NCBI GenBank assembly: GCA_028280285.1
Contig: JANQMA010000026.1
Location: 822-64,821, forward strand
DNA length: 64,000 nt
Reading direction: 5' to 3'
From: Candidatus Omnitrophota bacterium
GTDB taxonomy: Bacteria; Omnitrophota; Gorgyraeia; Zapsychrales; Zapsychraceae
Each line of letters opens with the position of its first letter. The first letter of the stretch is position 1. Of the stretch, positions 1-25,659 are shown in pieces. The position numbers were made by a program, and so were the translations under genes. Under the pieces are notes generated by a model that searched no databases, was not told the origin of the DNA, and was given only the letters and a program-made list of their open reading frames with translations.

Positions 1-3000
1 CATTCACAATTATCAGGTGTTTCTGACTGATAGCCATCTAAAGGTTATGCTGGAAAAGGACCTTTTTGCCGCACGCCAGGAAATTGGCGCAGATGTAGCG
101 CACATGGAGGCGGCAGGCGAACTGGTCAGCTCGGAAGAAGTAGCTGCTGTGATCCGTGAAGTGCTTATTCCTGAGATTGAGTACGAGATCAATCATGGTA
201 AAAATTTCGCGACACTCCGTCAGATTTTTAACTCTGTTATTTTGGCCTCTTGGTATAAAGACAATCTAAAGGAGTCTTTACTCGGGAAGGTGTATGTTGA
301 TCAAAATAAGCTTGAAGGAATCAATGACAATGATACGGCCACCAATGAAGCGATCTACAATCAGTATTTAGAGGCATTTAAAGCCGGTGTCTATGACTAT
401 ATTAAGGAAGGGTACGATCCGAGCGCCCAGCAAATGACAGCCAAAAAATACTTCTCAGGCGGAATTGCAGATTTAGTTAGTTTAAAGCGTAAAGATAATG
501 GAGTATTAGGCAAAGATCTTACGGGCAGTGATAGTGCGACTTTAGCTAATCAATTGCGTATTCGAATAGCGAATTTTGAAGTAAACCTTCTTGAGTGGGT
601 TAAAGAACTTACTTCTGGTATTGAGGAAAGGGCAAAACAAAAACATGAAGCAGCTGTCCGTTATCGGGATTTTATTGATACAAAAGAACGGGTTAACATA
701 GAAAAAGGTTTATCAAATTTACCTGAAAAATATGAAAGAGCTGCCAGAGCTTTAATGGAATTACCAAAAGCATATTTTTCACAGAGACAGATTAGAAGTT
801 TACAAACAAGAATTATAAAGTCACCTAGGCGTCAGTTAGAGAGTACAAGTGAAAGCATTGCACAGAGTTTAGAGCTCAAATTAACTAAGTCTATGTCTGC
901 TAATACTGAATATAATTATAACAACATAATACGCTTTGTGTTCAAAGATGTGGTTAGTGGAGCAAAAGCTTTGCATATTATTAGTACTGATATGAGTGGG
1001 AATTATCATGAACAACCTTGGATTAGGCCAAGTAAGGATATTAAATTAGTTGTTGATCTTTTTCGGAGATTTGCTGAGTTACAACCGGATCCCACTACGT
1101 TTAAAAAAGCAGATAATCTTTTGGCGAATTATTTTAACGATGGTAGCGCCACGGCTTGGGCTGCGATAGGTCTTGGTAATACAGAAATTACAGATCCGGA
1201 TTTCTATAGGGAGTTAATGGCAGGAAATCTTAGGCGTGAACAAATTGCCCAAAAGATTTTATATTTTTCAGAGATTGTAGATGAATATGAATCTGTTAAG
1301 CTTGATCGCACGACAGCCGTAACCGAAGATAAACTTATTGGATTTAATGGATTGAGGCCAGCAAGTGTGCTTGATGTGCTTCGTGAGCTAGTTGATATCG
1401 AAAAAATAATAAAAACCAGCGATGCCGCCTCTATTGCAGACATTCCCGATGATGTCATATCTCCTAAAAGGAAACAAGAGCACATAAATAAGCTTAAAAA
1501 AGCTGGTACGCTCGCCAGCAGTGTAGAGAAGCAAAAACTGAGAACTGACACGATTAAGGCTATGCTACAGGATTTTTATGAGTATACTCAAAGGATTTTA
1601 CGTGAGAACGACAAAAAAAGAAGCAGCAATAGTTTGACAACGCTAGGTTATTTTATGCCTGATATAAAGAGCATGGAGTTTCAGTATAATCAAAGTGAGT
1701 ATGAATTAGTAGAACAAGACAACAGTTTAGTTGTTTATTCTCTTGGTGACGAGCGCTCGATTTTACCAAATCAAGATATTACGAGTAATTTGCTTGTAGA
1801 GATTTCTAAGGTATTGAAGCAACGGGCAGACCGCATGACTCAAAAGACAGAAGAGGCTGTTAAAAAATCTTCAGACGAAGAGTGGGAAGAAATTTATAAC
1901 CTTGTTGGTGATGAAAGTGATGCATGGTTAGATTTAGATTCCGCTGAAGGCCAGATGAAAGATGAGGCCTCACTAGACACGCTGCTGATTGATTATAAAG
2001 GTCATGATCCTGAGTTGCGCGATGTGACCAATGTGATTAATGCGTTGCCTAAAAAATATCGTGAGGCAATAGAAGAAGCAGATCGTCCTTCATCTGTTGC
2101 TGATATAATTACGAAAGCTGAATCAGAGGGTTTGGTTGAATTTGCAATAATTACCAAGAGCGATCAGGTACGGCCAGCCATAAGGCGTTTATTTTATGAT
2201 GAAGAGCTGCTGCCAGTTACATCTGCGAGCTTGGCAGTGAATTATACTGGAAAAACTCAAATCACTAAGCGAGTTACTGAAGTGCTTAACGCCGAGGCAA
2301 AAGATGATTCAGATTTTGATCAACAATTAAGGGGAGGACTATTAAAGAGAGAAGTCATTATTGAAAGGGTTATGAATTCTAAACATGCGCCGGATGATTT
2401 GCGCGCAGGAGATAGATATGTTCTTATCGGCGCTGCGATCGATGAGTTGGTCGAACGGGGAAATATGAAAACCAGCGACGCCGCCGCGCTTGGGCAGGAA
2501 ACCGTGGACGAATTTGATGCGGCGGACTTGGATATCGAAAAAGAGGATGATTGGGATGATATCATAAAAGCTGTTCGTCAATTAAAGCCAGGGAAGACAG
2601 AAGAAGGTTTACATGAGGCTATTATGGCGTATATGAAGAGACACCAAAAAATGTTTAAGGTTGATCAGGGAGCATATGAGATGTATGTTCTTCCGCAAAT
2701 GAGTAGGATCTTTGCTGAATTTTATGAAATGGGGGGGATACCCCTGTACATGCTAAAAGGCCTTAAAGATCATCTTGATGAAATTTCAAAGGCACCGACA
2801 AGAGATGAACAGGTTTTTTTCCTAGCTACAGTAACTCTAAATATTTTGGGTCTACATGAATATGATGCGAAGAAGATTTTTTCTGATTCTTCTTTGCCGA
2901 TGCAGGACTCCGGTATTAGCAAAGAAGATAGAATTAATACAATTACCAAAAACTATGACGCACTGAAAGAAAAGGCCCAATTTTTAAGTGTAATTGAATC

Positions 3001-6000
3001 AAGACTTAAAGCTAAAAATAATCAAGGAGATGCGGATGCAGATAAGCTGCTACTTAGGCATCGTTTGTTGACCGATATAATACGGTCTAGTTTAGTTAGG
3101 TTCAGTGTATCTTTAGATCGTATGATTTCTGAGATGCGATTATCACTTGAAGTAGATGAAGAATCGGTTCAGGAAGTGGATCTGCATTATGTGGACTACA
3201 CTCTTCGGGCGATACATTTGACTTTAGACTTTTTAATAACAGATGTAGACAAAGCCGCGCTTGAGCAGACTGATGCGGCGATATTATTAAGTCCTGAGGA
3301 GGAAGAAAGAGCGCTATTATTAACAGCAGCTGAAGATCGAATTAATACGCTTTTGGATGAGCAGTACAAATCAGGAAGTGTAACAAAAGAAATTTATGAA
3401 AAATCAAGGAAAAGCGCCTTTAAAAATTTTAAAGAATGGACAGAAAGCGAAGAGCTGTACCGCTTAGCACCGGGGATTCGCATGGCCAATTTGCAGGCTG
3501 TCCGTGATGGACGTTTTAATGATATCGTGGAGGCTTATCGTCAAGAAATCGCCTTTGGAACAGCAGGTATTCGCGGGAAAGCGGCACTAACTCTGGATGA
3601 ACTTTTTAAAATGAAAGAGGATGGTCCAGCGGCAGCAATTCTTAAGGGAATTAACACAATTAATGATGTCGTTCTTCTACATAAAACAGCCGGTGTTATC
3701 AAATATGCACAGGAGACAGGGCGCACACGTATTGTGCTTGGGTATGATAGCCGCATCGGCGGATCAGAATTTATTGATATGATTGCGCGTTTATTCATTA
3801 AAGCGTCCAAGCCCGAACATGAATTTAAACTTTTTATTTTTGACGAATCGGCGCCTTTTCCAGAGCTGTCTTTTGGTATTACAACAAAAGAAGTTCAAGG
3901 GCATATCGGTATTTTTATATCGGCAAGCCATAACCCTGCGGATTATAACGGATACAAAATTACACTGGAAACAGGAGCCCAATTGAACCAAGAAAATAAA
4001 AATCTTGTATTGGATGCGGTAAATAGAACAACATTTGCAGATATTGTGTTAGCAGATTCACTTGCGGATGCTAAACCTGGACAAATTGTATGGTTAGGTG
4101 GGAAAGAAAGGCTAGAAGATAAGCAGTATTATGGATTTGATTTGATCGATATGCATACATTACATGTTGAACAGGTAAAAAAGTTGATTCTTGATAAAGA
4201 AGCGATCACGCGTGAAGGGCGTAATGTTAATATCGGATTTGCTGCATTTAATGGGGCCGGGCGCAAAGCAGTACCACGTTTGTTGGATGAAACAGATTTT
4301 GATAATGTAAAGGTTGTGTCAAAACTCCAAGAGTTAGACGGGCTTTTTCCTGCCTTTAAATATGGAGAACAACCCGATCCAGGTGACCCAATTGCAGGGG
4401 AAATTGCCGTCAATGAGTTCATTAAGGAGCATGGGCAAGAAGCGTTTGATGAACTAGATCTTCTGGTGGGAACTGATCCTGATTCTGATCGTATGGGCGC
4501 GGTACTGAAAGTCCCTGAAAGCCAACAAGCACAATTTGGAAAATATAGATTAATATCAGCCAATGATGCCTGGACACTCCTTACATGGTACAGACTTATG
4601 AAAAAGAAGGAGATGGGTTTATTAGAAAATCCCGAAAACCATCTTGTTGTAACAACACATGCAACGAGTGATGCGATTGCTGAAGTTGCTGAACAGGAAT
4701 TTGGTGTTGGTTCATATGGAAGAATGTTAGATATGAATAAAAAAGAAGATCGTGGAGATTATTTAAATGGTCAGCGCACATGGGTTGGCTTTACATATGT
4801 CTCAGAGGCTTTTGAGGAAATTTTAAAGATGGGGAAAGTTGCCGAAGGCGGTTATGAAGAATCTAATGGAATGAGTTTGCACGGACACACAAATGATAAA
4901 GATGGAACTTTGGCGGCCATTTTATTTGCGGAAATGGCGGCTTATGCGAAATCAGAAGGAACAACGCTATTTGAAATGCTCGATGAAATTTATTTAAAAA
5001 TAGGGCATTTTGGAACGGCTAACAAACCGTTACCAAGGGTTGGTTCGTTTGAAGGGGCAGCAGGCGTTTCAGAGAAAATTAATATATTAAAGAAAGCACA
5101 AGAGTGGGCGGCTGAAGCAAATAGTCGTGCCGGAACAGATAATCCTTTTATGATTGCCGGCCGTGAGGTTATCGGAGCCGTTGAGTTTAAATCGGGGCGC
5201 ATTGATCATAATCACTATGAAGGCGTACCTGATGAAGGAATTAGATTTTTCTTTAAAGATGAAAACATGAAAGAGGGGGATCATTTTATAAAGAGTAAAA
5301 ATTATGTAATGATTCGCCCTTCCGGTACATCTCAGACATTACGATTCTATACACAACTTCTTAAAAAAGTTGATCGTGAAAATATTGCTCAGCAAAAGCT
5401 GGAAAATTATATAGCGACAGAGCAATTAGCGCTTATGACGCAAAGGCAAATCTTGGGAGATGTTGGTTTGACTAAATATTTTGCAATGGTGGATGCACAA
5501 CTAGCGGAAGTAAGTCTTTCTAATGATAACGCAGCAATTGAAGAGGAAAAAGAAGATGCAGCAAGCTTGGCCGCTGAAGTTGCCTTGAAGCAGCTGGAAC
5601 GGGCCATTGGGGATGATTTTTCCTTTTTTATGAATTATACAGCAAAATTAGAGTATCAAGGTAATGTTAGAAATATTTATTATAACGATAATAGGCCTTT
5701 AGAATTAGAAATGTTAGAAAAAGTTATGCGTCATTATCAGAAATTGTTAATTGACCATGGGTTTTTCGATTTGGAGGTCAAGCGTCTGCGCATTCAAGGA
5801 TTACCGATTGACAATGAAGTCCTTAAGGTAACCCGTCAATCAGAATTTGAGTATGCTATAAATTTAGGCGATAGCAAGCCGGTTAGCATGAGTATTGATG
5901 ATATTCGTTCATTTATTAGACAAGCCCGGGCTAAGCTTCTTAAGAATGGAGATATAAGAAACGGTATTTTAACGCAACTGGCAAAACAATTAAGTAAAAA

Positions 6001-8059
6001 GGGTATTGCGCGTCTAGAGATTCAGCCATTCCTACCGTGGACTTCGGGATGGGTTTTTGAGTCTCATCCTGAGGGTAAGTTTGAGTTGTTGAGAAAGGGC
6101 AAGCCCGTTGAGGTGACGGAAGGGCTGTTGACTCGAATTGCAAACAAAGCTATAGAAGAACTAAACCGTAAAAAAGCTGAGAAGGATTTTAAAAACAAAG
6201 GATTTAAAAAATTACTCGAAGACGCCGCGGCATTTACAAAAGAAGATTTAGCAAGTATCGCCCGTATTTCAACAGAAATTATCTCAGAAGAAAAAATGAA
6301 AACAATTATAGCGAAACTAAAGGCAATTCGTGAATCATCAAGTACACCTTCAGAGCTAAAAGAATCACGTGAAAGTGCTGTGCAAGGAATGCTAAATGAC
6401 TTTCAAGAGTATGCTACGCAGGTTTTAGGCGAAATTAATACCCTAAGAGCGAAAGCAAATCAAGATCCTATTGAGGAATTTATTGGTAAATATGATACAT
6501 TCAATCATGATGGAAAAGATTATCATATTACTATGAACGAATCGCTCACAATTTTTGCTCAACATTGGAATGGTCCATTTCCTCTGGAAAGAGTTACTGG
6601 GGCTTTGTTAAGGGCAATATCAGTTAAACTTACTACTCAGAAAGACAATTTACAGGAGGATGTTAAGGCGTTAAATGCAGAAGCATTGGAAGCTGAGCAA
6701 AGTAAAATTGATGAGTTTCTTGATGATGCGGCATTAACAGTAGTTGAAGCAACGCCTGCCGACGCCGCGGCATTGAATATGGTAGAGAAATTGGCTAAAG
6801 GGCTTAACGGTCAAACAATAGGTCTGTTGACTCTGGATTATGATTCTGATGAGAGTAAAAGATCGGATACTAAAGGACTCGCTGTCTTTGAATTGAATAT
6901 GAAACAAGCAACTTCTATTAATGCATTTATGGAACTTCATGTTGGCGTTGAACGGATCAAAAAAGCCAAAGGTGAGAAGAAAGATACGATGCGTGTGTAT
7001 GTGAATTTGTCAGGACAGATTAAAGAGCAGACTGCTGATGGGATAGAGAGATTTGATGTGTTAGAAATTATTCAGGAAAGAGGTGAAGATCGAAAGATTG
7101 TGGAGGAGTTTGCTCATCAATTAATGGACAGACTTCCTTCCATTGTTGAGTTTGGGAATAGGGTTTTGCAGATTGATTTTGAAAAAAATATTGTTGATAC
7201 GGTAGGTGAGACAGAGCTTAAAGAGTACTTTGCAGAGCGTAAGGCTAAAGTAAAGGTTACACAATATGCCGGTGGACCTGTTATGAGTGTAATATTTGGT
7301 CCTGCCGCACTTGAGCAGGAAGGGCAAGACGGGTCCAATGATTATCTATTGTTTTCTGTATTAGCGAACTCAAAAGTTTTAACAAAAGATGATAAAAACG
7401 CACTTAATTTTACATATACCCGGGTTGATGACTACGTTGATTCAGTAAAGAGAACGCAAGATTTATATTGGGATGTTGTTGAAAAAATAGGTGATCGGTT
7501 AAAAGAAAAAGGGATTCTCAACGCGGAAATGACTTCACTTAAAATGAGGGCACCTGTCCTTGGAAAGTTTAGGGGAAAGACAATTATTTTTAAAGAAAAT
7601 CCGAATAGATTTAACGTTAACCAATATACGGCGCCGTCAACGAAATATGCTTTATTTAGATATGAAGGTGTGAAGGAAGTGATAATGAAGCCTGATGAGA
7701 TTACAGAATCTATGCTTCGTAAGGTAATTAAAGCGGCAAATAAAGCATTGGAAGATCACGCGGCACTTGACCCGCTTGGGGGTATTGATCTTAATCCTGA
7801 CCTTTTGGATCTGCAAATTAAGCGCGACGGCCGCGGTATTCCACTGCCACTTGATCAACAACCGCTTGAAAATATGCAAATTGACGGTTTTCTACCTATT
7901 ATTATTAATATTAATCCAGTTGCCAATTTGCCGCTTCTTTTGGGGCTTCTAGATGAGGATGGAGAGACCAATGAGGCTGAGGCGGATGCCTCTCAATCAG
8001 CGCAACTATATGGAAGAGAAGAACTTAGCTATTTAAGAGAAGGTGACAGCGAATTCTAA
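1..8059 (+). CDS. Giant secreted multidomain protein, paralog 1 of 3. It is 5'-truncated by the window (ORF track 17..8059, at least 2680 aa). It carries a conserved N-terminal domain shared with the next two ORFs, an internal phosphohexomutase domain and a conserved C-terminal module.
   Basis: Uninterrupted ORF from the window edge. Its first ~150 aa align with aa ~205-355 of the ORFs at 8193 and 14001 (for example FLTDSHLKVMLEKD and HGKNF..LRQIFNSVILASWYK). The C-terminal block GGIDLNPDLLDLQIKRDGRGIPLP...NPVANLPLLLGLL is shared with both paralogs. Confidence 0.85.
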   Translation, partial: IHNYQVFLTDSHLKVMLEKDLFAARQEIGADVAHMEAAGELVSSEEVAAVIREVLIPEIEYEINHGKNFATLRQIFNSVILASWYKDNLKESLLGKVYVDQNKLEGINDNDTATNEAIYNQYLEAFKAGVYDYIKEGYDPSAQQMTAKKYFSGGIADLVSLKRKDNGVLGKDLTGSDSATLANQLRIRIANFEVNLLEWVKELTSGIEERAKQKHEAAVRYRDFIDTKERVNIEKGLSNLPEKYERAARALMELPKAYFSQRQIRSLQTRIIKSPRRQLESTSESIAQSLELKLTKSMSANTEYNYNNIIRFVFKDVVSGAKALHIISTDMSGNYHEQPWIRPSKDIKLVVDLFRRFAELQPDPTTFKKADNLLANYFNDGSATAWAAIGLGNTEITDPDFYRELMAGNLRREQIAQKILYFSEIVDEYESVKLDRTTAVTEDKLIGFNGLRPASVLDVLRELVDIEKIIKTSDAASIADIPDDVISPKRKQEHINKLKKAGTLASSVEKQKLRTDTIKAMLQDFYEYTQRILRENDKKRSSNSLTTLGYFMPDIKSMEFQYNQSEYELVEQDNSLVVYSLGDERSILPNQDITSNLLVEISKVLKQRADRMTQKTEEAVKKSSDEEWEEIYNLVGDESDAWLDLDSAEGQMKDEASLDTLLIDYKGHDPELRDVTNVINALPKKYREAIEEADRPSSVADIITKAESEGLVEFAIITKSDQVRPAIRRLFYDEELLPVTSASLAVNYTGKTQITKRVTEVLNAEAKDDSDFDQQLRGGLLKREVIIERVMNSKHAPDDLRAGDRYVLIGAAIDELVERGNMKTSDAAALGQETVDEFDAADLDIEKEDDWDDIIKAVRQLKPGKTEEGLHEAIMAYMKRHQKMFKVDQGAYEMYVLPQMSRIFAEFYEMGGIPLYMLKGLKDHLDEISKAPTRDEQVFFLATVTLNILGLHEYDAKKIFSDSSLPMQDSGISKEDRINTITKNYDALKEKAQFLSVIESRLKAKNNQGDADADKLLLRHRLLTDIIRSSLVRFSVSLDRMISEMRLSLEVDEESVQEVDLHYVDYTLRAIHLTLDFLITDVDKAALEQTDAAILLSPEEEERALLLTAAEDRINTLLDEQYKSGSVTKEIYEKSRKSAFKNFKEWTESEELYRLAPGIRMANLQAVRDGRFNDIVEAYRQEIAFGTAGIRGKAALTLDELFKMKEDGPAAAILKGINTINDVVLLHKTAGVIKYAQETGRTRIVLGYDSRIGGSEFIDMIARLFIKASKPEHEFKLFIFDESAPFPELSFGITTKEVQGHIGIFISASHNPADYNGYKITLETGAQLNQENKNLVLDAVNRTTFADIVLADSLADAKPGQIVWLGGKERLEDKQYYGFDLIDMHTLHVEQVKKLILDKEAITREGRNVNIGFAAFNGAGRKAVPRLLDETDFDNVKVVSKLQELDGLFPAFKYGEQPDPGDPIAGEIAVNEFIKEHGQEAFDELDLLVGTDPDSDRMGAVLKVPESQQAQFGKYRLISANDAWTLLTWYRLMKKKEMGLLENPENHLVVTTHATSDAIAEVAEQEFGVGSYGRMLDMNKKEDRGDYLNGQRTWVGFTYVSEAFEEILKMGKVAEGGYEESNGMSLHGHTNDKDGTLAAILFAEMAAYAKSEGTTLFEMLDEIYLKIGHFGTANKPLPRVGSFEGAAGVSEKINILKKAQEWAAEANSRAGTDNPFMIAGREVIGAVEFKSGRIDHNHYEGVPDEGIRFFFKDENMKEGDHFIKSKNYVMIRPSGTSQTLRFYTQLLKKVDRENIAQQKLENYIATEQLALMTQRQILGDVGLTKYFAMVDAQLAEVSLSNDNAAIEEEKEDAASLAAEVALKQLERAIGDDFSFFMNYTAKLEYQGNVRNIYYNDNRPLELEMLEKVMRHYQKLLIDHGFFDLEVKRLRIQGLPIDNEVLKVTRQSEFEYAINLGDSKPVSMSIDDIRSFIRQARAKLLKNGDIRNGILTQLAKQLSKKGIARLEIQPFLPWTSGWVFESHPEGKFELLRKGKPVEVTEGLLTRIANKAIEELNRKKAEKDFKNKGFKKLLEDAAAFTKEDLASIARISTEIISEEKMKTIIAKLKAIRESSSTPSELKESRESAVQGMLNDFQEYATQVLGEINTLRAKANQDPIEEFIGKYDTFNHDGKDYHITMNESLTIFAQHWNGPFPLERVTGALLRAISVKLTTQKDNLQEDVKALNAEALEAEQSKIDEFLDDAALTVVEATPADAAALNMVEKLAKGLNGQTIGLLTLDYDSDESKRSDTKGLAVFELNMKQATSINAFMELHVGVERIKKAKGEKKDTMRVYVNLSGQIKEQTADGIERFDVLEIIQERGEDRKIVEEFAHQLMDRLPSIVEFGNRVLQIDFEKNIVDTVGETELKEYFAERKAKVKVTQYAGGPVMSVIFGPAALEQEGQDGSNDYLLFSVLANSKVLTKDDKNALNFTYTRVDDYVDSVKRTQDLYWDVVEKIGDRLKEKGILNAEMTSLKMRAPVLGKFRGKTIIFKENPNRFNVNQYTAPSTKYALFRYEGVKEVIMKPDEITESMLRKVIKAANKALEDHAALDPLGGIDLNPDLLDLQIKRDGRGIPLPLDQQPLENMQIDGFLPIIININPVANLPLLLGLLDEDGETNEAEADASQSAQLYGREELSYLREGDSEF
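3480..5400 (+). other. Alpha-D-phosphohexomutase (phosphoglucomutase/phosphomannomutase) domain embedded inside giant protein 1
   Basis: All four signature loops are present in the canonical order. The catalytic phosphoserine loop is SASHNP (~nt 3924-3940). The metal loop GTDPDSDR corresponds to the DGDGDR type. The sugar loop NGMSLHGH corresponds to the GEMSGH type. The phosphate-binding loop is RPSGTSQ (~nt 5312-5335). There is also an N-terminal GTAGIRGK motif (~nt 3551-3580). Confidence 0.75.
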
Positions 8060-8192
8060 CAAGGCCACACACTATCCCCCAAACCGTTTCAATCTTGAAT
8101 TGGCTTAACAGCATGCTATACTTATAACTATAATATTAGAAATTAAGGCATTTAGGTGCTGTTTGTATACTTTTACCAGGGAAGGGGTAAAT

Positions 8193-11100
8193 ATGTCTAT
8201 TAGTTTTAAATCATCCAGTAAATCTCCATTGACTCAGATTACATCCCTATTTGTCGCGTTTATATTTTGTTTTACTTCCGTTATTGCTCCCGGCTCGGCC
8301 CGGGCACAATTTATCCCGACACCGGCTGTCATGCCGGCAGTCGGCAGTATGGTGCAGATTTCCAATGCCTTTGATCCGCTTATTATCAAGGGTCTTACCA
8401 TTCATCCGGAGAATCCTCTGGAGTTTTCATTTTTAGTCGATTTAGGCGATACCAATTATAGCGAAACAAAGATCAAAGATGAGTCGCAGCGGCTGATTAC
8501 CTATTTTATGGCCGGTTTAACGGTCCCTGAAAGCGAGCTGTGGGTCAACCTTTCCCCTTATGAGAATAACCGTATTATTCCCGACAGCCTTGGCCAGACA
8601 GCCATGGGGCGTGATCTTCTCGCGCAAGACTATCTGCTTAAGCAGTTAACCGCGTCTTTAATGTATCCGGAAGATGAACTGGGCGATAAATTCTGGACAC
8701 AGATTAAACAGCGTGTGGAAGCTTTATATGGTCCGGGCGTTGATATCCCGACCAATGTGTTTAACAAGGTCTGGATTATGCCGGAAAGTGCGGAAATCTA
8801 TATTCATAACACCAGTGTTTTTCTTTTGGGTAGCCGTCTTCAGGTTATGCTGGAAGAAGATTATGTGGCGGCGCGCAAGGCCATTGGCGCGGATGTTGCG
8901 CATATGGAGACTGCCGGAGAGTTATTGGGCCATCAAGAGGTAGCGGAGGTTGTCCGTGAAGTGATCCTGCCGGCTATTGAAGAAGAAGTCAACTTTGGCG
9001 AAAACTTTTCTACCCTGCGGCAAATCTTTAATTCGATTATCCTTGCCTCCTGGTACAAAGACAATCTGAAAGAAACGATTTTAGGCCAGATTTATGCCGA
9101 TCAAAACAAGCTTAAAGGGATTGATGAAAACGACAAGCAAACAAATCAGCAGATTTATCAAAAGTATTTAGAGGCCTTTGAAGAGGGTGTTTATAACTAT
9201 ATTAGAGAAGAGTACGATCCGGCTAAGCAGCAGATTATTCCACGCAAATACTTCTCCGGCGGATGGCTTCATGATCAGGCAGCGCTACTCACTCATGAAA
9301 ATACAGTAGTGGAAGGCCAGTACGGCCAACCCCTTGATGCAGCCGTGCTTCAGAATTTTGGCAAGGCTATGACTCCTGAAGTTGTGAGGAAAATGAAACG
9401 AGTTAGGGCTCAATTGGCTCAAGAAAGTGCGAAAACGCATACAGTTGAGTCAATTGCTTACCAACCGCTTTTGTCTAATATTCCAAAGACAATAATTAAT
9501 AATGTGGAGGCTAGCCAACTAACCGATTTATTACAAGAAGATCAAATTAATCTCATCGCCAGAAAAACGCTGCTTGAGCTTATTAATCAGAGGGGTGTTT
9601 TGGATTATGGGATTGATGTTAATGTGCAAGCGGGTGAAGCGATCGATTTTATTTTTAACACAGACATGGATGACCGGATTATGCGTGCCGTGCGCACAGA
9701 ATTGCAATCGGAAGAAGAGTTGAGCACGCAACGCATGCTTGATTTGTTAGATGCATTTAGTGTAGAAGTTACGATTGTTGAAGGTGGTGCTTCTCGTTCT
9801 GAGGAAATGAGTTTGCGTGATTATATTCAAGGTAATCTCCAACATGCCGTTTATTTGGCCCATGCTGTCGGTAATGCGGATGAAAGAGGTGATGAGTCGA
9901 CGCGTGTAAGAAAGCGAAGAGGAATAAGAGAACAATTAGAACGTAGCTTTCCCGGTGTTAGCTCGGTAACTCTTAGAACTATTGCGCGTGATTTGGTTAA
10001 ATTACAAAGGAACAGATTAAATGATGATCATATGTCATTAATCGTACAAGCTGTTTCTGATAAGGTCCAGGCTAAGGTTAGTTTTGATCAGGTATACACA
10101 ACAGATGAATTTTCTTTCCGTGTTAGAAAGCAAGGGCAACTGGAAATCGCCGCGGCACGGGGAAACATTTTTAGTGATGTATCGTGGGGTAGCTTAACAG
10201 TCAATCAGCTAGGCCTTATAGCCCAGGCGGTTGACAATGCTTCGATACAAGATCCCGTCGAACCCGGTACGATTCAACAGCAATCAATGGTGAAAGAATC
10301 CGCTGATTTTAACCGGATTACTTCATATGCGGGGCAATCTTTCCAAAGAGATAATTTGTCTCAATTGATGCGTGAAGCAAGCTTTGTATCAGAGAGCCGT
10401 GAAAATTTTGTTGAGTTAAGAGATCAATTCGAACGCATACGAACGGCGTCAGATCCGCAGGGTAGCATTGTTGGTATTAAGGTTATTGAAAATACTCAGC
10501 CTCTTCAATATGGAGGGGGTTTTGAGCTTGACGGCATAGTATATGTTGAACAAAGCTTATTAGATCATATCGAAAAGAATAATAACCCTTTTAATATGCG
10601 TGAACGTATGTTGCGCAATTTCTTTCGTAAAGGAACTGCCCTTGAGAGAAAAATTGCGGAATATGATGAATTGGTTCAAAAATACGGAGAATCCAGGTTA
10701 AACTTATTTCCGGAAGGCCGTGTCCTACAAAGCTATCGCGATACGCTTTATGGGCAATTACCGGCAGATAAAAATAATACAGAAAGGCTTAATATTATAC
10801 TTGAAAAACACGGATTCAATAATGTTAAAATTACTGAGCCTGATGAAAAAGCGATTGAATTAACTAATATATTAAAGGAACACATTGATATTGCTTTATA
10901 CACAATGGCGATCAATTCGGCGAATAAATTTATTGATTTAAATAAAAATATCCGTATGCATACGGATGATCCTTTATTGGATTCAAATGAGGAGTATGTA
11001 GCTAATTTTTTTGCTTTCGCCGCTTATCCAGCGACTGTTGCGCACTTTATTACTGTTGCCTTAAAAGGAGGCGCGCTGTCCTATTCGGATGATAATATTT

Positions 11101-13742
11101 TTTATGTGTCCAAAGATCAGCTAAAACCAGAGGCCTATCGTGAATATGATAGTCGTTATGATATTACGGAAGCCGTAGTGGAAAATACTATGCAAGGTCT
11201 GGCACGGTTAATGCCCAAAACGACTGAAAGGCAGGGCAAAAATGGAGAAAACATGTTGCTTCCTCTGGCTGAAAAGAATATAGGAGCTAAGCAAATCACT
11301 TTTAATTATATGATTGGGGAGGATCATTGGCTTGCCTTTGCGCGCTATACTGAAGACCATGTGAAAAAAGCAAAGCGAACAATTAATGATCTTGAGAAAG
11401 AAAAAGAGCAATTAAACAGTAAGATAAAAAATGCTGAGGTGCCAGAAGAAAAAGATCAAACGGAGTTTCGAGTAGAAATTAATAGGCGCCTAACAGAGAT
11501 TGATCAAAAAATAGAGCACAACCAGAATATTAAGGCGGGAGGTATTATACCCACCCGTGTAAAGTTGGATGAAGCGGATTTTATGGTTATGGAGGGGTAT
11601 CTGGATTTATTGAAATTATTGCTTGAGAAGGATAAAGAAAGCTTAACAGATCAGCAGGTTGAGGCCATTGAAGTACTCCTTGACCAAAGAGCTCTTTTCT
11701 TAGATGAATTGTCTGATGCGGCTGAGGAAGATAGGAAGTTAGATAACGATGACCCTGAAGATACGCCACATTTGTTTGAAGTATTTAAAAAATATGGTAT
11801 TTCAGAAGTTCCTAAGCTGGACACAGCCGGAAAGATTCATTTATCGGCAAAGGAATTTAAAAAACGTCATCCGGATCAGCCTATTGAAATGAGGGTTGTA
11901 ATTACCAAGCGCGGCAGTATTATGGAAGATAAAATTCGCGATGAGCTTAAAGTTCCACATACTATTAATCCAGGTTTGGACTATCCGGTTTCTTCAACCG
12001 CACTGAGAACTGCGCTTGTGAATATTCCACGTGATAGGTTAGACCGAGGTGAATTGCCTTTTGTATTTATCGATACCGTGGATGAATTATTAGAATCTCA
12101 GAGGAGAGAACATCTTTATTCATTGTTATTGACAAAAAGTGAACCAACCCTAGCTAATGCACTTGAAGTTGTATTTCCTAAAAATCAAGCAAGAAAAGAA
12201 CAGCGGCATACTCAATTAAGAGCAGATCTTCAACAGGCGCTTCAAGAGGGATATTATACCAACAATGTAAATGTTGATGGGCATGTTGAGCCCAAAAACA
12301 ACCGTTCTGTATTGGACATTCAAGTTAATGACGATAAATTTCGTGTTGTCTATAATGTTGTCAATCGTGCAAAGACAAAGGGAAACATAGTTCGATTTGC
12401 TGTTAGCGATCAGAATAATAAAGAAATTAGTCAGACGGAGTGGTCAGAAAAATCTGTTTTAAGTAGTGCCGTAGAAGAATATTTGAAAAGTTATACTGGC
12501 GCTGTTGTTACGACATACTTGCCACTTGAGGAGTTAAGTAAACGTGAGCTTGTCCATCAAAGAGGTAAGGATCTCAATTTTCTTTCCAGCAATGATGGTC
12601 AAATTATGCAATTCATGCAAGAGTTTGCGCAGGAATTCACACATGATACTACTACTGAATCCCGTGAACAAGAATTATCAGAAGACTTTGAGCTTGTTGT
12701 CTTTGACCGCCCACGATTTTTACGTCAAGATGGGCGGATTGAGATTCAATTTACTCATCAAATATTTAATGATCCAGTTAATAAGGCATGGACAGCAGAT
12801 GGATATTTTCAATATATTGATGAAAAAATTGTTTCTGAGCTAAATTGGTTTTTAAGTGATAGGCGACTAAAAGCCGAAGCGCTAAACAATACGTTAACGA
12901 TCAATAAGAATAGAGACGGCATGCCTTACGTTACAATGGAAATTGAAATATCTAAGGTCTCGGCTACTTTGGGGCAAAAAGACAGTGAAAACGAGTCCGA
13001 CGCCCCGACTATGACCAGTGGACAAAGATTATTTGTTGTTAACGAATCGCAGAATAAGGTAAACCAATTTAGTGTAGAGGATATGGATCCTGATTTTGGA
13101 AGGATAAAAAGCACGGCAACGGTACGGTTTCTTCCGTCGAACGGTAACGGTGTTGTCAAGGGTATGGTGAGGTATATTCCTAATCAACGTGATAATTCAA
13201 ATCAAAATGAATTAAATAAATTAAAATTTAAATTAAAAGAAAAATATGTGCAGAATAATGAACAAGAAAAGCGCGATATCGAAGAGGAAATTAAAACACT
13301 TGAGACTAAGCTTAAAGAAAGCAGGGAAAATGTTTTAACAAAACTTGAAAAGGAGTTAAATTCTTTAAACGATGACCTCAATCCCGGAGAAACACAGGAG
13401 TATGATGTTAAACCTTCTCGACTCGTTACCAATGATGGCTTTGAACTAACCATTACGTTGCAGGATAACGCAGCGGTTACAGCCGATCCGGTGGGTGGTA
13501 TTGATCTTAATCCCGAGATGCTTGATCTTCAGATCAAACGCGACGCAAGCGGCATGCCGCTTCCGGTGAGTCAGCAGCCGATTATCAATATGGATATCGA
13601 AGGGTTTGTGCCGGTTATTATTAATATCACGCCTGTTACCAATGTTCCGCTTATGCTGGGTTTAATTAATGAAGGAACGATTGAGGTAGAAGAAGAGCCG
13701 CTTGAGGCCGTTCAGGCCGTCCGGTTTGATGAGTTGAGTTAA
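8193..13742 (+). CDS. Giant secreted protein, paralog 2 (about 1849 aa). It has a signal peptide, the conserved N-terminal domain, a unique central region with coiled coil, and the conserved C-terminal GGIDLNP module.
   Basis: An ATG at 8193 is preceded by GGAAGGGG, and the track's TTG at 8163 is less likely. The signal peptide is LTQITSLFVAFIFCFTSVIAPGSARA. The N-terminal domain is homologous to paralogs 1 and 3. The C-terminal module is GGIDLNPEMLDLQIKRDASGMPLP...PVTNVPLMLGLI, followed by an acidic tail. Confidence 0.85.
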   Translation: MSISFKSSSKSPLTQITSLFVAFIFCFTSVIAPGSARAQFIPTPAVMPAVGSMVQISNAFDPLIIKGLTIHPENPLEFSFLVDLGDTNYSETKIKDESQRLITYFMAGLTVPESELWVNLSPYENNRIIPDSLGQTAMGRDLLAQDYLLKQLTASLMYPEDELGDKFWTQIKQRVEALYGPGVDIPTNVFNKVWIMPESAEIYIHNTSVFLLGSRLQVMLEEDYVAARKAIGADVAHMETAGELLGHQEVAEVVREVILPAIEEEVNFGENFSTLRQIFNSIILASWYKDNLKETILGQIYADQNKLKGIDENDKQTNQQIYQKYLEAFEEGVYNYIREEYDPAKQQIIPRKYFSGGWLHDQAALLTHENTVVEGQYGQPLDAAVLQNFGKAMTPEVVRKMKRVRAQLAQESAKTHTVESIAYQPLLSNIPKTIINNVEASQLTDLLQEDQINLIARKTLLELINQRGVLDYGIDVNVQAGEAIDFIFNTDMDDRIMRAVRTELQSEEELSTQRMLDLLDAFSVEVTIVEGGASRSEEMSLRDYIQGNLQHAVYLAHAVGNADERGDESTRVRKRRGIREQLERSFPGVSSVTLRTIARDLVKLQRNRLNDDHMSLIVQAVSDKVQAKVSFDQVYTTDEFSFRVRKQGQLEIAAARGNIFSDVSWGSLTVNQLGLIAQAVDNASIQDPVEPGTIQQQSMVKESADFNRITSYAGQSFQRDNLSQLMREASFVSESRENFVELRDQFERIRTASDPQGSIVGIKVIENTQPLQYGGGFELDGIVYVEQSLLDHIEKNNNPFNMRERMLRNFFRKGTALERKIAEYDELVQKYGESRLNLFPEGRVLQSYRDTLYGQLPADKNNTERLNIILEKHGFNNVKITEPDEKAIELTNILKEHIDIALYTMAINSANKFIDLNKNIRMHTDDPLLDSNEEYVANFFAFAAYPATVAHFITVALKGGALSYSDDNIFYVSKDQLKPEAYREYDSRYDITEAVVENTMQGLARLMPKTTERQGKNGENMLLPLAEKNIGAKQITFNYMIGEDHWLAFARYTEDHVKKAKRTINDLEKEKEQLNSKIKNAEVPEEKDQTEFRVEINRRLTEIDQKIEHNQNIKAGGIIPTRVKLDEADFMVMEGYLDLLKLLLEKDKESLTDQQVEAIEVLLDQRALFLDELSDAAEEDRKLDNDDPEDTPHLFEVFKKYGISEVPKLDTAGKIHLSAKEFKKRHPDQPIEMRVVITKRGSIMEDKIRDELKVPHTINPGLDYPVSSTALRTALVNIPRDRLDRGELPFVFIDTVDELLESQRREHLYSLLLTKSEPTLANALEVVFPKNQARKEQRHTQLRADLQQALQEGYYTNNVNVDGHVEPKNNRSVLDIQVNDDKFRVVYNVVNRAKTKGNIVRFAVSDQNNKEISQTEWSEKSVLSSAVEEYLKSYTGAVVTTYLPLEELSKRELVHQRGKDLNFLSSNDGQIMQFMQEFAQEFTHDTTTESREQELSEDFELVVFDRPRFLRQDGRIEIQFTHQIFNDPVNKAWTADGYFQYIDEKIVSELNWFLSDRRLKAEALNNTLTINKNRDGMPYVTMEIEISKVSATLGQKDSENESDAPTMTSGQRLFVVNESQNKVNQFSVEDMDPDFGRIKSTATVRFLPSNGNGVVKGMVRYIPNQRDNSNQNELNKLKFKLKEKYVQNNEQEKRDIEEEIKTLETKLKESRENVLTKLEKELNSLNDDLNPGETQEYDVKPSRLVTNDGFELTITLQDNAAVTADPVGGIDLNPEMLDLQIKRDASGMPLPVSQQPIINMDIEGFVPVIINITPVTNVPLMLGLINEGTIEVEEEPLEAVQAVRFDELS

Positions 13743-18513: not shown

Positions 18514-18524
18514 ATTCGAACAAG

Positions 18525-25646: not shown

Positions 25647-25659
25647 CGACAATTGTTTT

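What the first reader, a model, noticed from the sequence alone, without database searches (positions are those of the whole stretch)
3480..5400. Apparently intact phosphoglucomutase/phosphomannomutase domain embedded in the middle of giant protein 1
All four catalytic loops of the alpha-D-phosphohexomutase superfamily are present in order: SASHNP (phosphoserine), GTDPDSDR (metal), NGMSLHGH (sugar) and RPSGTSQ (phosphate). This ~630-aa domain lies more than 1100 aa into a protein whose paralogs have signal peptides. An enzyme that acts on cytoplasmic sugar phosphates fused inside a giant, probably exported, protein is unexpected. It could be a moonlighting or binding module, an extracellular sugar-phosphate activity, or a sign that the protein is not exported after all.
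Basis: partly seen in the sequence, partly recalled or inferred. Interest (0 to 1): 0.75.

Follow-up and report, generated by a model that had tools for sequence, protein, structure and literature searches.

The report
Phosphoglucomutase module inside exported Omnitrophota protein
A complete phosphoglucomutase-type enzyme with all its catalytic residues is built into the middle of a 2,888-residue, signal-peptide-bearing protein of an Omnitrophota bacterium; the fusion is real and recurs across that phylum, as two preprints have already noted, but why a cytoplasm-type sugar-phosphate enzyme sits in an export-type protein is still unexplained.

Summary
Window 3284-5512 (+) encodes a full alpha-D-phosphohexomutase unit of about 740 aa. 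Pfam finds domains I-III. The AlphaFold model has pLDDT 96.5 and matches solved PGM/PMM structures over all four domains. The catalytic loops SASHNP, GTDPDSDR, EESNG and RPSGTSQ are all present.

The unit belongs to an unnamed "long" PGM-like family of about 740-aa stand-alone proteins found in many phyla. Here it lies in frame inside a 2,888-aa protein (full length recovered as P0241). That protein has a Sec-type signal peptide, no cysteine and no internal transmembrane segment. It also has a conserved N-terminal domain of about 330 aa and a conserved C-terminal "GGIDLN...PVIINIxPV...LLGL" domain. Both end domains are shared with the two downstream paralogs and with more than 1,100 Omnitrophota proteins that carry other enzyme cargo.

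Fourteen of the 16 related Omnitrophota genomes embed the same unit in larger proteins of at least 962 to at least 7,401 aa. All copies that are not cut off by a contig end keep every catalytic motif, while the flanking spacers are not alignable.

My best reading is an active mutase module carried as cargo of an exported, surface-displayed or prey-delivered scaffold protein. A cytoplasmic tethered metabolon is the main rival. PGM/PMM domains in Omnitrophota giant proteins are already reported, so this is a new member of a known kind.

The parts
2..8059 (+). Giant protein 1 (G1), 5'-truncated in the window. The full-length protein is P0241, 2,888 aa, of which 203 aa lie upstream of the window.
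   Evidence: continuous ORF. P0241 is identical over 2,685 aa, starts MILTFQRSSKTLSSRIFSFFLAFTFIFSSIMPTGAAA|QLIP, and has 0 Cys in 2,888 aa; no TM-like peak except at the C-terminal end.
2..463 (+). C-terminal half of the conserved N-terminal domain, ending at KYFSGG. The first half and the signal peptide lie upstream of the window.
   Evidence: Alignment with G2, G3 and P0001. N-domain HMM hit at aa 40-360 of P0241. The family has at least 1,115 members, with Omnitrophota the usual label where a source names the hit.
464..3283 (+). Spacer 1 (window aa 155-1094): no recognisable domain and not conserved in relatives.
   Evidence: no Pfam or NCBIfam hit. (no BLAST or phmmer similarity to paralogs, orthologue-like proteins or any held protein).
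3284..5512 (+). Complete long-type alpha-D-phosphohexomutase (PGM-like) unit: N-terminal helical extension plus four domains.
   Evidence: AF2 pLDDT 96.5, pTM 0.94. Foldseek hits to PGM/PMM structures, TM(target) 0.70-0.82; 49-62% identity to embedded copies elsewhere; 102 of 119 family-conserved positions kept.
3920..3937 (+). Phosphoserine loop SASHNP. The catalytic Ser is the second S.
   Evidence: Invariant S-A-S-H-N columns in 121 sequences. Present in all embedded copies.
4469..4492 (+). Metal-binding loop GTDPDSDR (D-x-D-x-D-R).
4853..4906 (+). Sugar-binding loop YEESNG, followed by a subclade-specific 13-aa deletion and the conserved H..DKDG.
   Evidence: The deletion is shown.
5315..5335 (+). 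Phosphate-binding loop RPSGTSQ in domain 4. SGTSQ is the family-wide variant of the canonical SGTEP.
   Evidence: R-P-S-G-T columns are invariant or nearly so. The loop is seen in 12 of the 13 embedded copies that extend that far; in L002 and L017 the strict pattern did not match, and L016 ends before this loop.
5513..7777 (+). Spacer 2 (window aa 1838-2592): no recognisable domain and not conserved.
7778..8056 (+). Conserved C-terminal domain (GGIDLNP...IDGFLPIIININPVANLPLLLGL) plus an acidic tail.
   Evidence: 55.7% identical to G2 over the last 95-97 aa. HMM hit at 2787-2887 of P0241.
8193..13742 (+). Paralog G2: signal peptide, N-domain, unrelated middle, C-domain. ATG 8193 is the more likely start; the ORF listing gives TTG 8163.
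14001..17330 (+). Paralog G3: signal peptide, N-domain, unrelated middle, C-domain.

Best explanation
Window 3284-5512 encodes a whole phosphoglucomutase-type enzyme of about 740 aa: four-domain fold, phosphoserine, a Mg2+ site, and sugar and phosphate loops. It comes from a distinct, unnamed 'long' branch of the alpha-D-phosphohexomutase superfamily.

In Omnitrophota this enzyme has been captured as a cargo module of modular export-type proteins. Here the host is a 2,888-aa protein with these parts in order:
- a cleavable-looking Sec signal peptide
- a conserved N-terminal domain of about 330 aa
- a fast-evolving spacer
- the PGM unit
- a second spacer
- a conserved C-terminal domain of about 70-90 aa

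Shown: the fusion is real, it recurs, and the unit is under strong purifying selection on its catalytic residues while the spacers drift freely.

Inferred: the protein is translocated by Sec. It stays cysteine-free because it must remain translocation-competent or work in an oxidising compartment. It is then displayed on the envelope or passed on to a host or prey cell.

Inferred: once there, the unit still works as a mutase, using the usual Ser-phosphate / bisphosphate-intermediate mechanism to interconvert sugar 1-phosphates and 6-phosphates. The substrate is unknown; hexose phosphates are most likely. In relatives it is often accompanied by enzymes of neighbouring steps (UDP-glucose pyrophosphorylase, PGI, PGK, aldose epimerase). 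Because these modules need cytoplasmic metabolites, the most coherent site of action for an exported version is the interface with, or the interior of, another cell.
For: Intact enzyme:
- Pfam domains I-III are found.
- The AF2 model has pLDDT 96.5.
- The top Foldseek hits are all PGM/PMM, GlmM-type or pentomutase structures.
- S-A-S-H-N, D-P-D-x-D-R, E-x-S-x-G and S-G-T are strictly invariant, and the R-P of the phosphate loop at least 90% conserved, in a 121-sequence alignment that includes the window.
- 102 of 119 positions at least 97% conserved in stand-alone relatives are retained.

Real and recurrent fusion:
- The ORF is uninterrupted.
- An identical 2,888-aa protein is on record from NCBI and from Logan.
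- L002 (2,243 aa) and L007 (2,480 aa) have the same N - spacer - PGM - spacer - C order. L003/P0001 (about 1,203 aa) is a minimal N-PGM-C version.
- 14 of 16 related genomes embed the unit in ORFs of at least 962 to at least 7,401 aa.
- 42 of the 145 best 50%-cluster representatives are at least 1,000 aa.

Selection:
- Only the N-domain, the PGM unit (49-62% identity) and the C-domain align between G1 and its relatives; the spacers do not.
- The phosphoserine, metal and sugar loops are present in all 14 embedded copies. The phosphate loop is seen in 12 of the 13 that extend that far.

Export:
- P0241 and the complete relatives have n/h/c-type signal peptides ending AxA|Q.
- There is no internal TM peak.
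- G1 has 0 Cys in 2,888 aa, against 1.24% in the other window ORFs (P about 3e-15 for 2,685 aa). The periplasmic SurA-like and MlaD proteins of the window are also Cys-free.
- The PGM core has 0-3 Cys in fused Omnitrophota forms and 2-13 in stand-alone forms.
- The N-domain family as a whole has 0.065% Cys, and 94 of 120 members have none after the signal peptide.
- In L013 the unit shares a polypeptide with polysaccharide deacetylase, peptidase M15 and beta-lactamase-type domains, which act on cell walls.

Literature:
- PGM/PMM domains were predicted extracellular in Omnitrophota giant proteins (10.1101/2023.11.21.568195).
- They occur in 88 of 916 long proteins, 94% of which have a signal peptide or TM segment (10.64898/2026.06.07.730766).
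Against: - No experiment or dedicated predictor (SignalP, DeepTMHMM) was available. The signal peptide was judged by eye and by a hydropathy scan.
- A mutase outside the cytoplasm lacks obvious substrates and the glucose-1,6-bisphosphate needed to prime the serine.
- Partner modules in relatives (UDPGP, PGK, REC, SAM methyltransferase, NUDIX) need UTP, ATP, SAM or a kinase, which points to a cytoplasmic milieu.
- Each of the 16 related genomes showed only one locus of this PGM clade. Stand-alone members in other phyla sit in housekeeping contexts. The embedded copy may therefore have to serve a cytoplasmic role.
- No secretion partner, outer-membrane translocation signal or known sorting domain was identified. 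The N- and C-domains match nothing known.
- Prey delivery is pure inference.
- The G1 subclade has lost 13 residues next to the sugar loop, so its activity or specificity may have changed.
Confidence: 0.5

Rival explanations
1. Cytoplasmic or inner-membrane-tethered metabolon. The N-terminal hydrophobic segment only anchors the protein, or the topology is otherwise misjudged. The bulk, including the PGM unit, stays on the cytoplasmic side. There it works as an ordinary mutase, channelling sugar phosphates to neighbouring modules or enzymes. UDP-sugar and polysaccharide genes lie directly downstream in the window.
For: - Cargo domains of the family need cytoplasmic cofactors: UDPGP, PGK, REC, NUDIX and epimerase by Pfam and a SAM-methyltransferase-like motif read by eye in P0172.
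- In L007, UDPGP lies immediately upstream of the PGM unit, and these are consecutive steps G6P->G1P->UDP-Glc. L017 has PGM-PGI.
- Only one locus of this PGM clade was seen per genome.
- Stand-alone relatives lack signal peptides and sit among housekeeping genes.
- The 2026 preprint reads the sugar-metabolism module as compatible with a cytoplasmic face for its TM-only class.
- Nucleotide-sugar genes start at 17446.
Against: - The N-termini look like cleavable Sec signal peptides: a positive n-region, an h-region of about 15 aa, then AxA|Q. Even if uncleaved, this would put the bulk outside.
- No further TM segment exists to bring the chain back in.
- The extreme, family-wide loss of cysteine, including inside enzyme cargo, matches the window's periplasmic proteins and not its cytoplasmic ones.
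- The unit co-occurs with cell-wall-acting domains in L013.
Confidence: 0.27
2. Non-catalytic module. The PGM fold has been kept as a phospho-sugar or glycan-binding domain, or as a purely structural domain of a surface protein (a pseudoenzyme), for example to bind phosphorylated cell-wall polymers of a host.
For: - The G1 subclade has a 13-aa deletion right after the sugar loop.
- It shows somewhat more changes at family-conserved positions than stand-alone Omnitrophota copies (17 against 9).
- There is no obvious extracellular substrate or priming cofactor.
Against: - The catalytic Ser, the His-Asn of the Ser loop, all three metal-loop Asp, the sugar-loop Glu and Ser and the phosphate-loop Arg, Ser and Thr are kept in G1. 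Across the other embedded copies, at only 49-62% identity, the first three loops are always present and the phosphate loop nearly always.
- Binding alone would not require the phosphoserine and metal residues.
Confidence: 0.1
3. Polyprotein precursor. The long chain is exported or made as one piece and then cut by a protease, releasing a free PGM-like enzyme of about 740 aa. The N- and C-domains would serve only for targeting or processing.
For: - The unit's boundaries coincide exactly with full-length stand-alone enzymes.
- The spacers are unconserved filler.
- West-Roberts et al. propose cleavage of giant proteins by C39/S8 peptidase domains.
Against: - No peptidase domain or conserved cleavage motif was found in G1-G3 or flanking the unit.
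- There are no conserved residues at the junctions.
Confidence: 0.1
4. Artefact. The fusion would result from mis-assembly, a missed stop or frameshift, or an unrecognised separate gene with its own start.
For: - One relative (L008, Ca. Zapsychrus exili) has a stop or frameshift inside the unit's N-terminal extension. This shows such errors occur in MAGs.
Against: - The ORF is uninterrupted for 8 kb.
- An identical protein is recorded from two sources.
- The same architecture occurs in independent genomes.
- No in-frame ATG/GTG/TTG with a Shine-Dalgarno-like motif lies near the unit's start.
- G+C composition is uniform.
Confidence: 0.02

Closest known systems
Alpha-D-phosphohexomutase superfamily (PGM, PMM/PGM, GlmM, PNGM; PGM2/PgcA-like enzymes)
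   Same: It has the four-domain fold. The four active-site loops lie in canonical order: phosphoserine T/SASHNP, metal DxDxDR, sugar E-x-S-x-G and phosphate R-x-SGT. The metal loop reads 'DPDxDR'; from my own knowledge, not tested here, this form and the N-terminal helical extension recall the PGM2/PgcA-like subgroup. The next-best library hits are proteins of 550-600 aa.
   Different: Sequence identity to any solved structure is only 13-21%. No NCBIfam equivalog reaches its cut-off: best 75 bits against 439. The unit is about 740 aa, with extra helices and insertions. The phosphate loop is SGTSQ, not SGTEP. The substrate is unknown. The unit is embedded in a signal-peptide protein instead of being a free cytoplasmic enzyme.
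Unnamed 'long' PGM-like family of about 740-aa stand-alone proteins (labels given by sources include Gemmatimonadetes, Latescibacteria, Zixibacteria, Calditrichaeota, Phycisphaerales, Bathyarchaeota and Omnitrophica)
   Same: Alignment runs end to end: 34-41% identity over 90-98% of the query for nearly all. All family-invariant residues are kept, and Omnitrophota stand-alone copies reach 51-52% identity.
   Different: Stand-alone members have no signal peptide, carry 2-13 Cys in the core and sit in housekeeping neighbourhoods. The window copy is internal to a 2,888-aa protein, has no Cys and lacks 13 aa after the sugar loop.
Omnitrophota giant / very long proteins with enzyme modules ('Archaeovorins' and 'multi-enzyme metabolic clusters'; bioRxiv 10.1101/2023.11.21.568195 and 10.64898/2026.06.07.730766; also eLife 10.7554/eLife.108061)
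   Same: The phylum is the same, and so is the puzzle. PGM/PMM domains (PF02878/79/80) and other sugar-phosphate enzymes lie inside long proteins that mostly carry signal peptides or TM segments and have unconserved filler between domains. Relatives of the window unit sit in ORFs of at least 3,900 to at least 7,400 aa.
   Different: G1 is 2,888 aa, far below those studies' thresholds of at least 10,000 aa or more than 30,000 aa. It has a single recognisable module. A term search of the two preprints for 'N-terminal' and 'C-terminal' returned no passage describing a conserved N-domain / C-domain scaffold like the one found here.
Secretion architectures that pair a Sec signal with a conserved terminal targeting domain: two-partner secretion TpsA proteins (N-terminal TPS domain), autotransporter passengers, type IX secretion cargo (C-terminal CTD)
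   Same: This is an analogy of layout only. All have a Sec signal peptide, a conserved terminal domain, and long variable or cargo regions. Passengers that cross the outer membrane unfolded are known, from the literature on autotransporters, to be poor in cysteine. The family here is almost Cys-free.
Moonlighting glycolytic enzymes on bacterial surfaces (enolase, GAPDH, PGK, PGM reported on streptococcal and other surfaces; from my own knowledge)
   Same: A cytoplasm-type sugar-phosphate enzyme is found outside the cytoplasm.
   Different: Moonlighting enzymes are the ordinary cytoplasmic proteins, without signal peptides. Here the enzyme is a dedicated copy, genetically fused into a signal-peptide protein.

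Membership tests
Alpha-D-phosphohexomutase superfamily | Four-domain fold: three alpha/beta/alpha domains plus a C-terminal TBP-like domain | tested here: met
   Pfam I, II and III are above gathering scores. AF2 gives pLDDT 96.5 and pTM 0.94. Foldseek aligns 630-690 columns to PGM/PMM structures, with TM(target) 0.70-0.82. Pfam domain IV is not detected by sequence, but the region is present in the model and carries the phosphate loop.
Alpha-D-phosphohexomutase superfamily | Phosphoserine loop T/S-A-S-H-N-P with the catalytic Ser | tested here: met
   SASHNP at nt 3920-3937. The columns are invariant in 121 sequences.
Alpha-D-phosphohexomutase superfamily | Metal-binding loop D-x-D-x-D-R | tested here: met
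   GTDPDSDR at nt 4469-4492. D, D, D and R are invariant.
Alpha-D-phosphohexomutase superfamily | Sugar-binding loop with conserved Glu and Ser (G-E-x-S-G type) | tested here: met
   YEESNG at nt 4853-4870. E, S and G are invariant. A 13-aa deletion follows in this subclade.
Alpha-D-phosphohexomutase superfamily | Phosphate-binding loop in domain 4 (R-x-S-G-T-x-P) | tested here: met
   RPSGTSQ at nt 5315-5335. S, G and T are invariant and R and P at least 90% conserved. The last two residues (SQ, not EP) differ from the canonical form throughout the long family.
Alpha-D-phosphohexomutase superfamily | Mutase activity through a phosphoenzyme and a bisphosphate intermediate | not testable with these tools
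   This needs an enzyme assay and mass spectrometry of the phosphoserine.
Named enzyme families (GlmM, Pgm, PMM/PGM, PgmG, CpsG) | Score above the curated NCBIfam equivalog cut-off | tested here: not met
   The best hit is TIGR03990 Arch_GlmM at 75 bits against a cut-off of 439, and the others are lower. The same holds for stand-alone family members. The unit should not be named GlmM, PGM or PMM.
Long (about 740-aa) PGM-like family | End-to-end alignment with the stand-alone proteins, including the N-terminal helical extension and the family-specific conserved positions | tested here: met
   34-41% identity over 90-98% of a 700-aa query for nearly all of more than 100 proteins. 102 of 119 highly conserved positions are kept. 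In an NJ tree without support values the unit falls in one cluster with the other Omnitrophota copies.
Omnitrophota N-domain / C-domain scaffold family (defined here) | Sec-type signal peptide | tested here: met
   P0241's N-terminus has a positive n-region, a 15-aa h-region and AAA|Q. G2, G3 and relatives are alike. This was judged by eye and a hydropathy scan, with no dedicated predictor.
Omnitrophota N-domain / C-domain scaffold family (defined here) | Conserved N-terminal domain of about 330 aa (WVNLSPxE, DYxLKQ, PExExEVNxGxNF, YFSGG) | tested here: met
   Window aa 1-154 align with G2, G3 and P0001. The HMM hit is at aa 40-360 of P0241. At least 1,115 homologues exist.
Omnitrophota N-domain / C-domain scaffold family (defined here) | Conserved C-terminal domain GGID(L/F)N ... 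GFxPVIxNIxP ... LLG(L/F) | tested here: met
   nt 7778-7951. It is found with the N-domain in 17 complete proteins of 565-734 aa, plus P0001 and P0003.
Omnitrophota 'giant proteins' as defined in the preprints | Length at least 10,000 aa (2026 preprint) or more than 30,000 aa (2023 preprint) | tested here: not met
   The protein is 2,888 aa. Its domain content and phylum match, but its size class does not.
Known secretion/sorting domains (TPS, autotransporter, T9SS CTD, PEP-CTERM and similar) | Match to the corresponding Pfam or NCBIfam model | tested here: not met

The most novel reading that the evidence does not exclude
The signal peptide + N-domain ... C-domain scaffold marks a so far undescribed, Omnitrophota-specific export or delivery system. 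Its cargo would be whole cytoplasm-type, cofactor-dependent enzymes: long-type PGM, UDP-glucose pyrophosphorylase, PGK, NUDIX, methyltransferase, receiver domains and ankyrin repeats. These proteins would be kept cysteine-free so that they can cross the envelope unfolded. They would then be displayed on the surface or injected into host or prey cells, where the PGM module would rewire the victim's sugar-phosphate pools.
Probability: 0.25. Interest if true: 0.8.

Novelty: new member of a known kind. Interest (0 to 1): 0.45.

Why it matters
Omnitrophota are uncultured nanobacteria suspected of preying on or parasitising other microbes. Their long proteins are among the least understood gene products known. 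This window offers a small, tractable example: 2.9 kaa with one recognisable module. A very similar minimal version of about 1.2 kaa (P0001) exists elsewhere.

The open question is whether these enzyme-studded proteins work outside the cell. Here the boundaries of the enzyme unit are exact. A stand-alone cytoplasmic counterpart exists for comparison. The scaffold's two end domains and its near-total lack of cysteine give concrete handles for testing export.

If export is confirmed, it would mean that bacteria ship whole sugar-phosphate and nucleotide-sugar enzymes out of the cytoplasm. That has implications for how episymbionts exploit hosts. If export is refuted, these proteins are membrane-tethered metabolons and the 'extracellular effector' reading of Omnitrophota giants needs revision.

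Tried and rejected
- Separate gene or internal start. In-frame ATG/GTG/TTG codons between nt 3050 and 3420 have no Shine-Dalgarno-like motif and none lies at the unit's start. Rejected, though many genes here lack an SD anyway.
- Degenerate domain. Rejected by motif and conserved-position counts.
- First genome-contig scan with the single protein found nothing, because the peptide patterns were too specific. The second scan, with the clade alignment, gave 16 Omnitrophota loci.
- Naming the enzyme. NCBIfam equivalogs are all far below their cut-offs. PDB sequence and profile searches reach only E about 1e-8 to 1e-9. The substrate is left open.
- Gene context of stand-alone relatives, examined for a functional hint. 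Only housekeeping neighbours were found (rplU-rpmA, rpmE-prfA-prmC), and once a canonical 456-aa PGM/PMM next door. Uninformative.
- The afdb50 fold library was unavailable.
- The G1 spacers were searched against paralogs, loci, N-domain family members and PGM representatives by BLAST and phmmer. Nothing was found.
- Another PGM gene in the window: none among the ORFs of at least 150 aa that were scanned.
- C-terminal hydrophobic stretch as a TM anchor. It is only moderately hydrophobic (1.64), has three Pro and three Asn, and is not predicted helical. Not accepted as a TM helix.


Full report
**1. What is in the sequence**

The region lies in one uninterrupted reading frame, window 2..8059 (+), which is open at the 5' end. 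Pfam finds PGM_PMM_I (aa 1219-1345, E 1e-19), PGM_PMM_II (1390-1501) and PGM_PMM_III (1592-1663). It finds nothing else in this protein or in the two large ORFs that follow.

- SASHNP at nt 3920-3937
- GTDPDSDR at nt 4469-4492
- NGMSLHGH at nt 4865-4888
- RPSGTSQ at nt 5315-5335

**2. The unit is a whole enzyme of a distinct family**

A 700-aa query gave two kinds of hit. Omnitrophota proteins matched at 50-64% identity. More than 100 stand-alone proteins of roughly 700-900 aa (most near 740 aa), whose source labels include Latescibacteria, Zixibacteria, Gemmatimonadetes, Calditrichaeota, Phycisphaerales and Bathyarchaeota, matched at 34-41% identity over 90-98% of the query for nearly all of them.

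The embedded segment therefore corresponds end to end to a free-living enzyme, including an N-terminal helical extension of about 90 aa. Its limits in the window are about nt 3284-5512 (aa 1095-1837), not the roughly 630 aa first estimated.

In a 121-sequence alignment the S-A-S-H-N, D-P-D-x-D-R, E-x-S-x-G and S-G-T columns are invariant and the R-P of the phosphate loop is at least 90% conserved. Conservation was also defined on the 105 stand-alone-type sequences alone. By that measure the window copy keeps 102 of 119 positions that are at least 97% conserved. Several of the differences are shared by the whole Omnitrophota clade.

AlphaFold2 with this alignment gives pLDDT 96.5 and pTM 0.94. 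All 50 listed Foldseek hits in the PDB are phosphohexo- or phosphopentomutases, with TM (target-normalised) 0.67-0.82 (0.70-0.82 for all but one) and only 13-21% sequence identity.

Sequence and profile searches of the PDB reach only E about 1e-8 to 1e-9. No NCBIfam equivalog comes near its cut-off: 75 bits against 439. The unit is thus a bona fide member of the alpha-D-phosphohexomutase superfamily, in an unnamed deep branch. Its substrate cannot be named.

One local peculiarity was seen. The subclade containing the window copy lacks 13 residues right after the sugar loop that all other members keep.

**3. The host protein**

The exhaustive representative search returned a 2,888-aa protein, P0241. 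Its last 2,685 residues are identical to the window ORF, and it is recorded from NCBI and from Logan on a 134-kb contig.

Its N-terminus is MILTFQRSSKTLSSRIFSFFLAFTFIFSSIMPTGAAA|QLIP. This has the n/h/c layout of a Sec signal peptide with an AxA site. The unit sits at aa 1298-2036.

The two downstream ORFs (8193..13742 and 14001..17330) share only two things with it. One is a domain of about 330 aa following the signal peptide. The other is a C-terminal domain of about 70-90 aa, GGIDLN...GFxPVIINIxPVxNLPLLLGL. The middles are unrelated.

A profile of the N-domain finds at least 1,115 proteins. Where a source names the hit, the label is almost always Omnitrophota or Omnitrophica. Seventeen of the best 120 are complete proteins of 565-734 aa with both end domains. 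Between the end domains, different members carry different cargo:
- ankyrin repeats
- phosphoglycerate kinase
- metallophosphoesterase
- NUDIX
- a CapD-like epimerase/dehydratase
- a receiver domain
- a SAM-methyltransferase-like segment (motif read by eye in P0172)

**4. The fusion is real and recurrent**

A scan of GTDB representative genomes with the clade alignment found 16 Omnitrophota-type loci. HMM mapping onto stop-to-stop ORFs gave these architectures:
- L002: 2,243 aa, N-domain - spacer - PGM - spacer - C-domain
- L007: 2,480 aa, the same order, flanked by two more paralogs as in the window
- L003/P0001: about 1,203 aa, N-PGM-C with no spacers, preceded by a paralog of about 1,940 aa
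- ORFs of 1,997 and 3,511 aa, and ORFs open at a contig end of at least 962, 1,874, 2,112, 2,342, 3,908, 4,951 and 7,401 aa, each with the unit inside
- one protein with a hydrophobic, transmembrane-like N-terminus (L004)
- one stand-alone copy (L015)

Among the 145 best 50%-cluster representatives, 42 are at least 1,000 aa with the unit embedded. Most of these have signal-peptide-like N-termini.

Between G1 and these relatives only the N-domain, the PGM unit (49-62% identity) and the C-domain are alignable. The spacers find nothing at all. The phosphoserine, metal and sugar loops are present in every embedded copy. The phosphate loop was seen in 12 of the 13 copies that extend that far. This is the signature of purifying selection on catalysis in a background of free drift.

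No in-frame start with a ribosome-binding motif lies near the unit's beginning. The single relative with a stop there (L008) has a frameshift inside the unit, most likely an assembly error.

**5. Where does it act?**

*For export.* The signal peptides support it. So does the absence of internal TM-like peaks. A compositional signal is the strongest evidence:
- The three proteins have one cysteine in 5,648 residues, and that one is in a signal peptide.
- The other ORFs of the window have 1.24% Cys (P about 3e-15 for G1).
- The window's periplasmic SurA-like and MlaD proteins are likewise Cys-free.
- The PGM core has 0-3 Cys in fused Omnitrophota forms but 2-13 in stand-alone forms, including 4-6 in stand-alone Omnitrophota copies.
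- Across the N-domain family, Cys is 0.065% after the signal peptide, and 94 of 120 proteins have none, enzyme cargo included.

In L013 the unit shares a polypeptide with polysaccharide deacetylase, peptidase M15 and beta-lactamase-family domains, which act on cell walls.

*Against export, or at least against activity in the periplasm.* The unit's companions in relatives are UDP-glucose pyrophosphorylase (directly upstream in L007), PGK, PGI, aldose epimerase and receiver domains. These modules need UTP, ATP or kinases. Only one locus of this PGM clade was seen per genome. Stand-alone members elsewhere sit among housekeeping genes.

*Reconciliation.* I favour this reading at about 0.5. The proteins are exported and act on the surface of, or inside, another cell, in line with the predatory or parasitic lifestyle proposed for Omnitrophota. 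The main rival, at about 0.27, is a membrane-tethered cytoplasmic metabolon. A non-catalytic binding module is disfavoured by the conservation of the phosphoserine and metal ligands.

**6. Relation to what is known**

West-Roberts et al. (bioRxiv 10.1101/2023.11.21.568195) list PGM/PMM, TPI, GPI, FBPase and aldolase domains in predicted extracellular parts of Omnitrophota giant proteins, and they raise the same localisation doubt.

A 2026 preprint (10.64898/2026.06.07.730766) finds PF02878/79/80 in 88/65/64 of 916 proteins of at least 10,000 aa. These co-occur with starch synthase, GT1, receiver and ROK-kinase domains, and 94% of the 916 proteins carry a signal peptide or TM segment.

Burroughs et al. 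(eLife 10.7554/eLife.108061) also note polysaccharide-biosynthesis and signalling domains in gigantic Omnitrophota proteins, in a predator-prey context.

The phenomenon is therefore known. This window adds:
- a small member (2.9 kaa) with a single recognisable module
- the identification of the module as a complete copy of a specific long PGM-like family
- a conserved N-/C-terminal scaffold that a term search of the two preprints did not turn up
- the cysteine-depletion argument for export

**7. Surroundings**

Downstream of the three paralogs lie several groups of genes:
- a nucleotide-sugar and glycosyltransferase cluster (GFO/IDH/MocA oxidoreductases, two DegT aminotransferases, a hexapeptide acetyltransferase, UDP-GlcNAc 2-epimerase, GT2 and GT4)
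- Mla transport genes
- PMT/YfhO-like membrane glycosyltransferases
- ordinary housekeeping genes

There is no other PGM gene among the scanned ORFs of the window. G+C content is even across the region.

**Verdict**

The finding is a new member of a known kind. The biological puzzle is real but has already been flagged in the literature. Interest: 0.45.

Noticed in passing
window 2-17330: Three tandem paralogous large proteins (2,888, about 1,850 and 1,109 aa) share only a signal peptide, an N-domain of about 330 aa and a C-domain of about 70-90 aa. Their middles are unrelated. The same tandem arrangement is seen in L003 and L007. The N-domain family has at least 1,115 members, labelled Omnitrophota in almost every case where a source names the hit, and has no Pfam, NCBIfam or PDB match.
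   Followed up: partly
window 2-17330; 32377-33048; 58035-59564: The three large proteins contain one Cys in 5,648 aa, and it lies in the G2 signal peptide. The MlaD and SurA-like periplasmic proteins also have none. The other ORFs of at least 150 aa in the window average 1.24% Cys. Extracytoplasmic proteins of this organism may be systematically cysteine-free.
   Followed up: partly
window 17446-26703 and 40330-42750: This is a nucleotide-sugar and polysaccharide gene cluster directly downstream of the paralogs, on the same strand. It holds GFO/IDH/MocA oxidoreductases, two DegT-type aminotransferases, hexapeptide acetyltransferases, a UDP-GlcNAc 2-epimerase, GT2 and GT4 transferases and DUF354. 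From my own knowledge it resembles a Wbp-like UDP-diacetamido-sugar pathway. It might glycosylate envelope proteins or LPS.
   Followed up: no
window 36318-39756 (-): Two adjacent membrane-protein ORFs match YfhO (E 3e-7) and PMT/PMT_2 (dolichyl-phosphate-mannose protein mannosyltransferase-like), next to a TPR protein. They are possible envelope or protein glycosylation machinery.
   Followed up: no
window 8163-8195: the ORF listing starts G2 at TTG 8163. However, ATG 8193 is preceded by a purine-rich Shine-Dalgarno-like GGGAAGGGG and gives a typical signal peptide (MSISFKSS...), so it is the more likely start.
   Followed up: partly
window 4871-4888 (after the sugar loop): The G1/P0001/P0002/P0003/P0005 subclade of the PGM unit lacks a 13-aa segment (consensus ILGGPxxxGExLGxxG) that every other family member keeps next to the active-site sugar loop. 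Substrate specificity may have changed.
   Followed up: partly
L007:6659-14098: An orthologue-like 2,480-aa protein has N-domain - UDP-glucose pyrophosphorylase (aa 743-1064) - long PGM (1126-1856) - receiver domain (2267-2377) - C-domain. Two consecutive steps of UDP-glucose synthesis are thus fused in one signal-peptide protein.
   Followed up: partly
L013:3-14855: An ORF of at least 4,951 aa carries a canonical PGM/PMM (domains I-IV), the long PGM unit, aldose 1-epimerase, NAGPA phosphodiester glycosidase, a beta-lactamase-family domain, polysaccharide deacetylase and peptidase M15_4. Sugar-phosphate enzymes and cell-wall-acting enzymes share one chain.
   Followed up: no
L009:562-6552 and L017:4625-15157: Other companions of the unit are PGK plus UDPGP (L009, 1,997 aa) and phosphoglucose isomerase (L017, 3,511 aa). 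Both proteins start with signal-peptide-like segments.
   Followed up: no
L008:9900-10060 (Ca. Zapsychrus exili JAVCCJ010000069.1): A stop codon separates a 2,027-aa N-domain ORF from the PGM ORF in the same frame. The alignment shows the break lies inside the unit's N-terminal helical extension and that another frame restores the match. It is probably a frameshift error in the MAG, less likely a pseudogene.
   Followed up: partly
L021:9177-10547 (Phycisphaerales CP070782.1): A 904-aa long-type PGM lies next to a canonical 456-aa PGM/PMM. The long family therefore coexists with, and presumably differs in function from, the standard mutase.
   Followed up: no
window 49113-50312: A GH5 cellulase-family ORF (E 3e-39) sits among housekeeping genes, next to an alpha/beta hydrolase ORF.
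   Followed up: no
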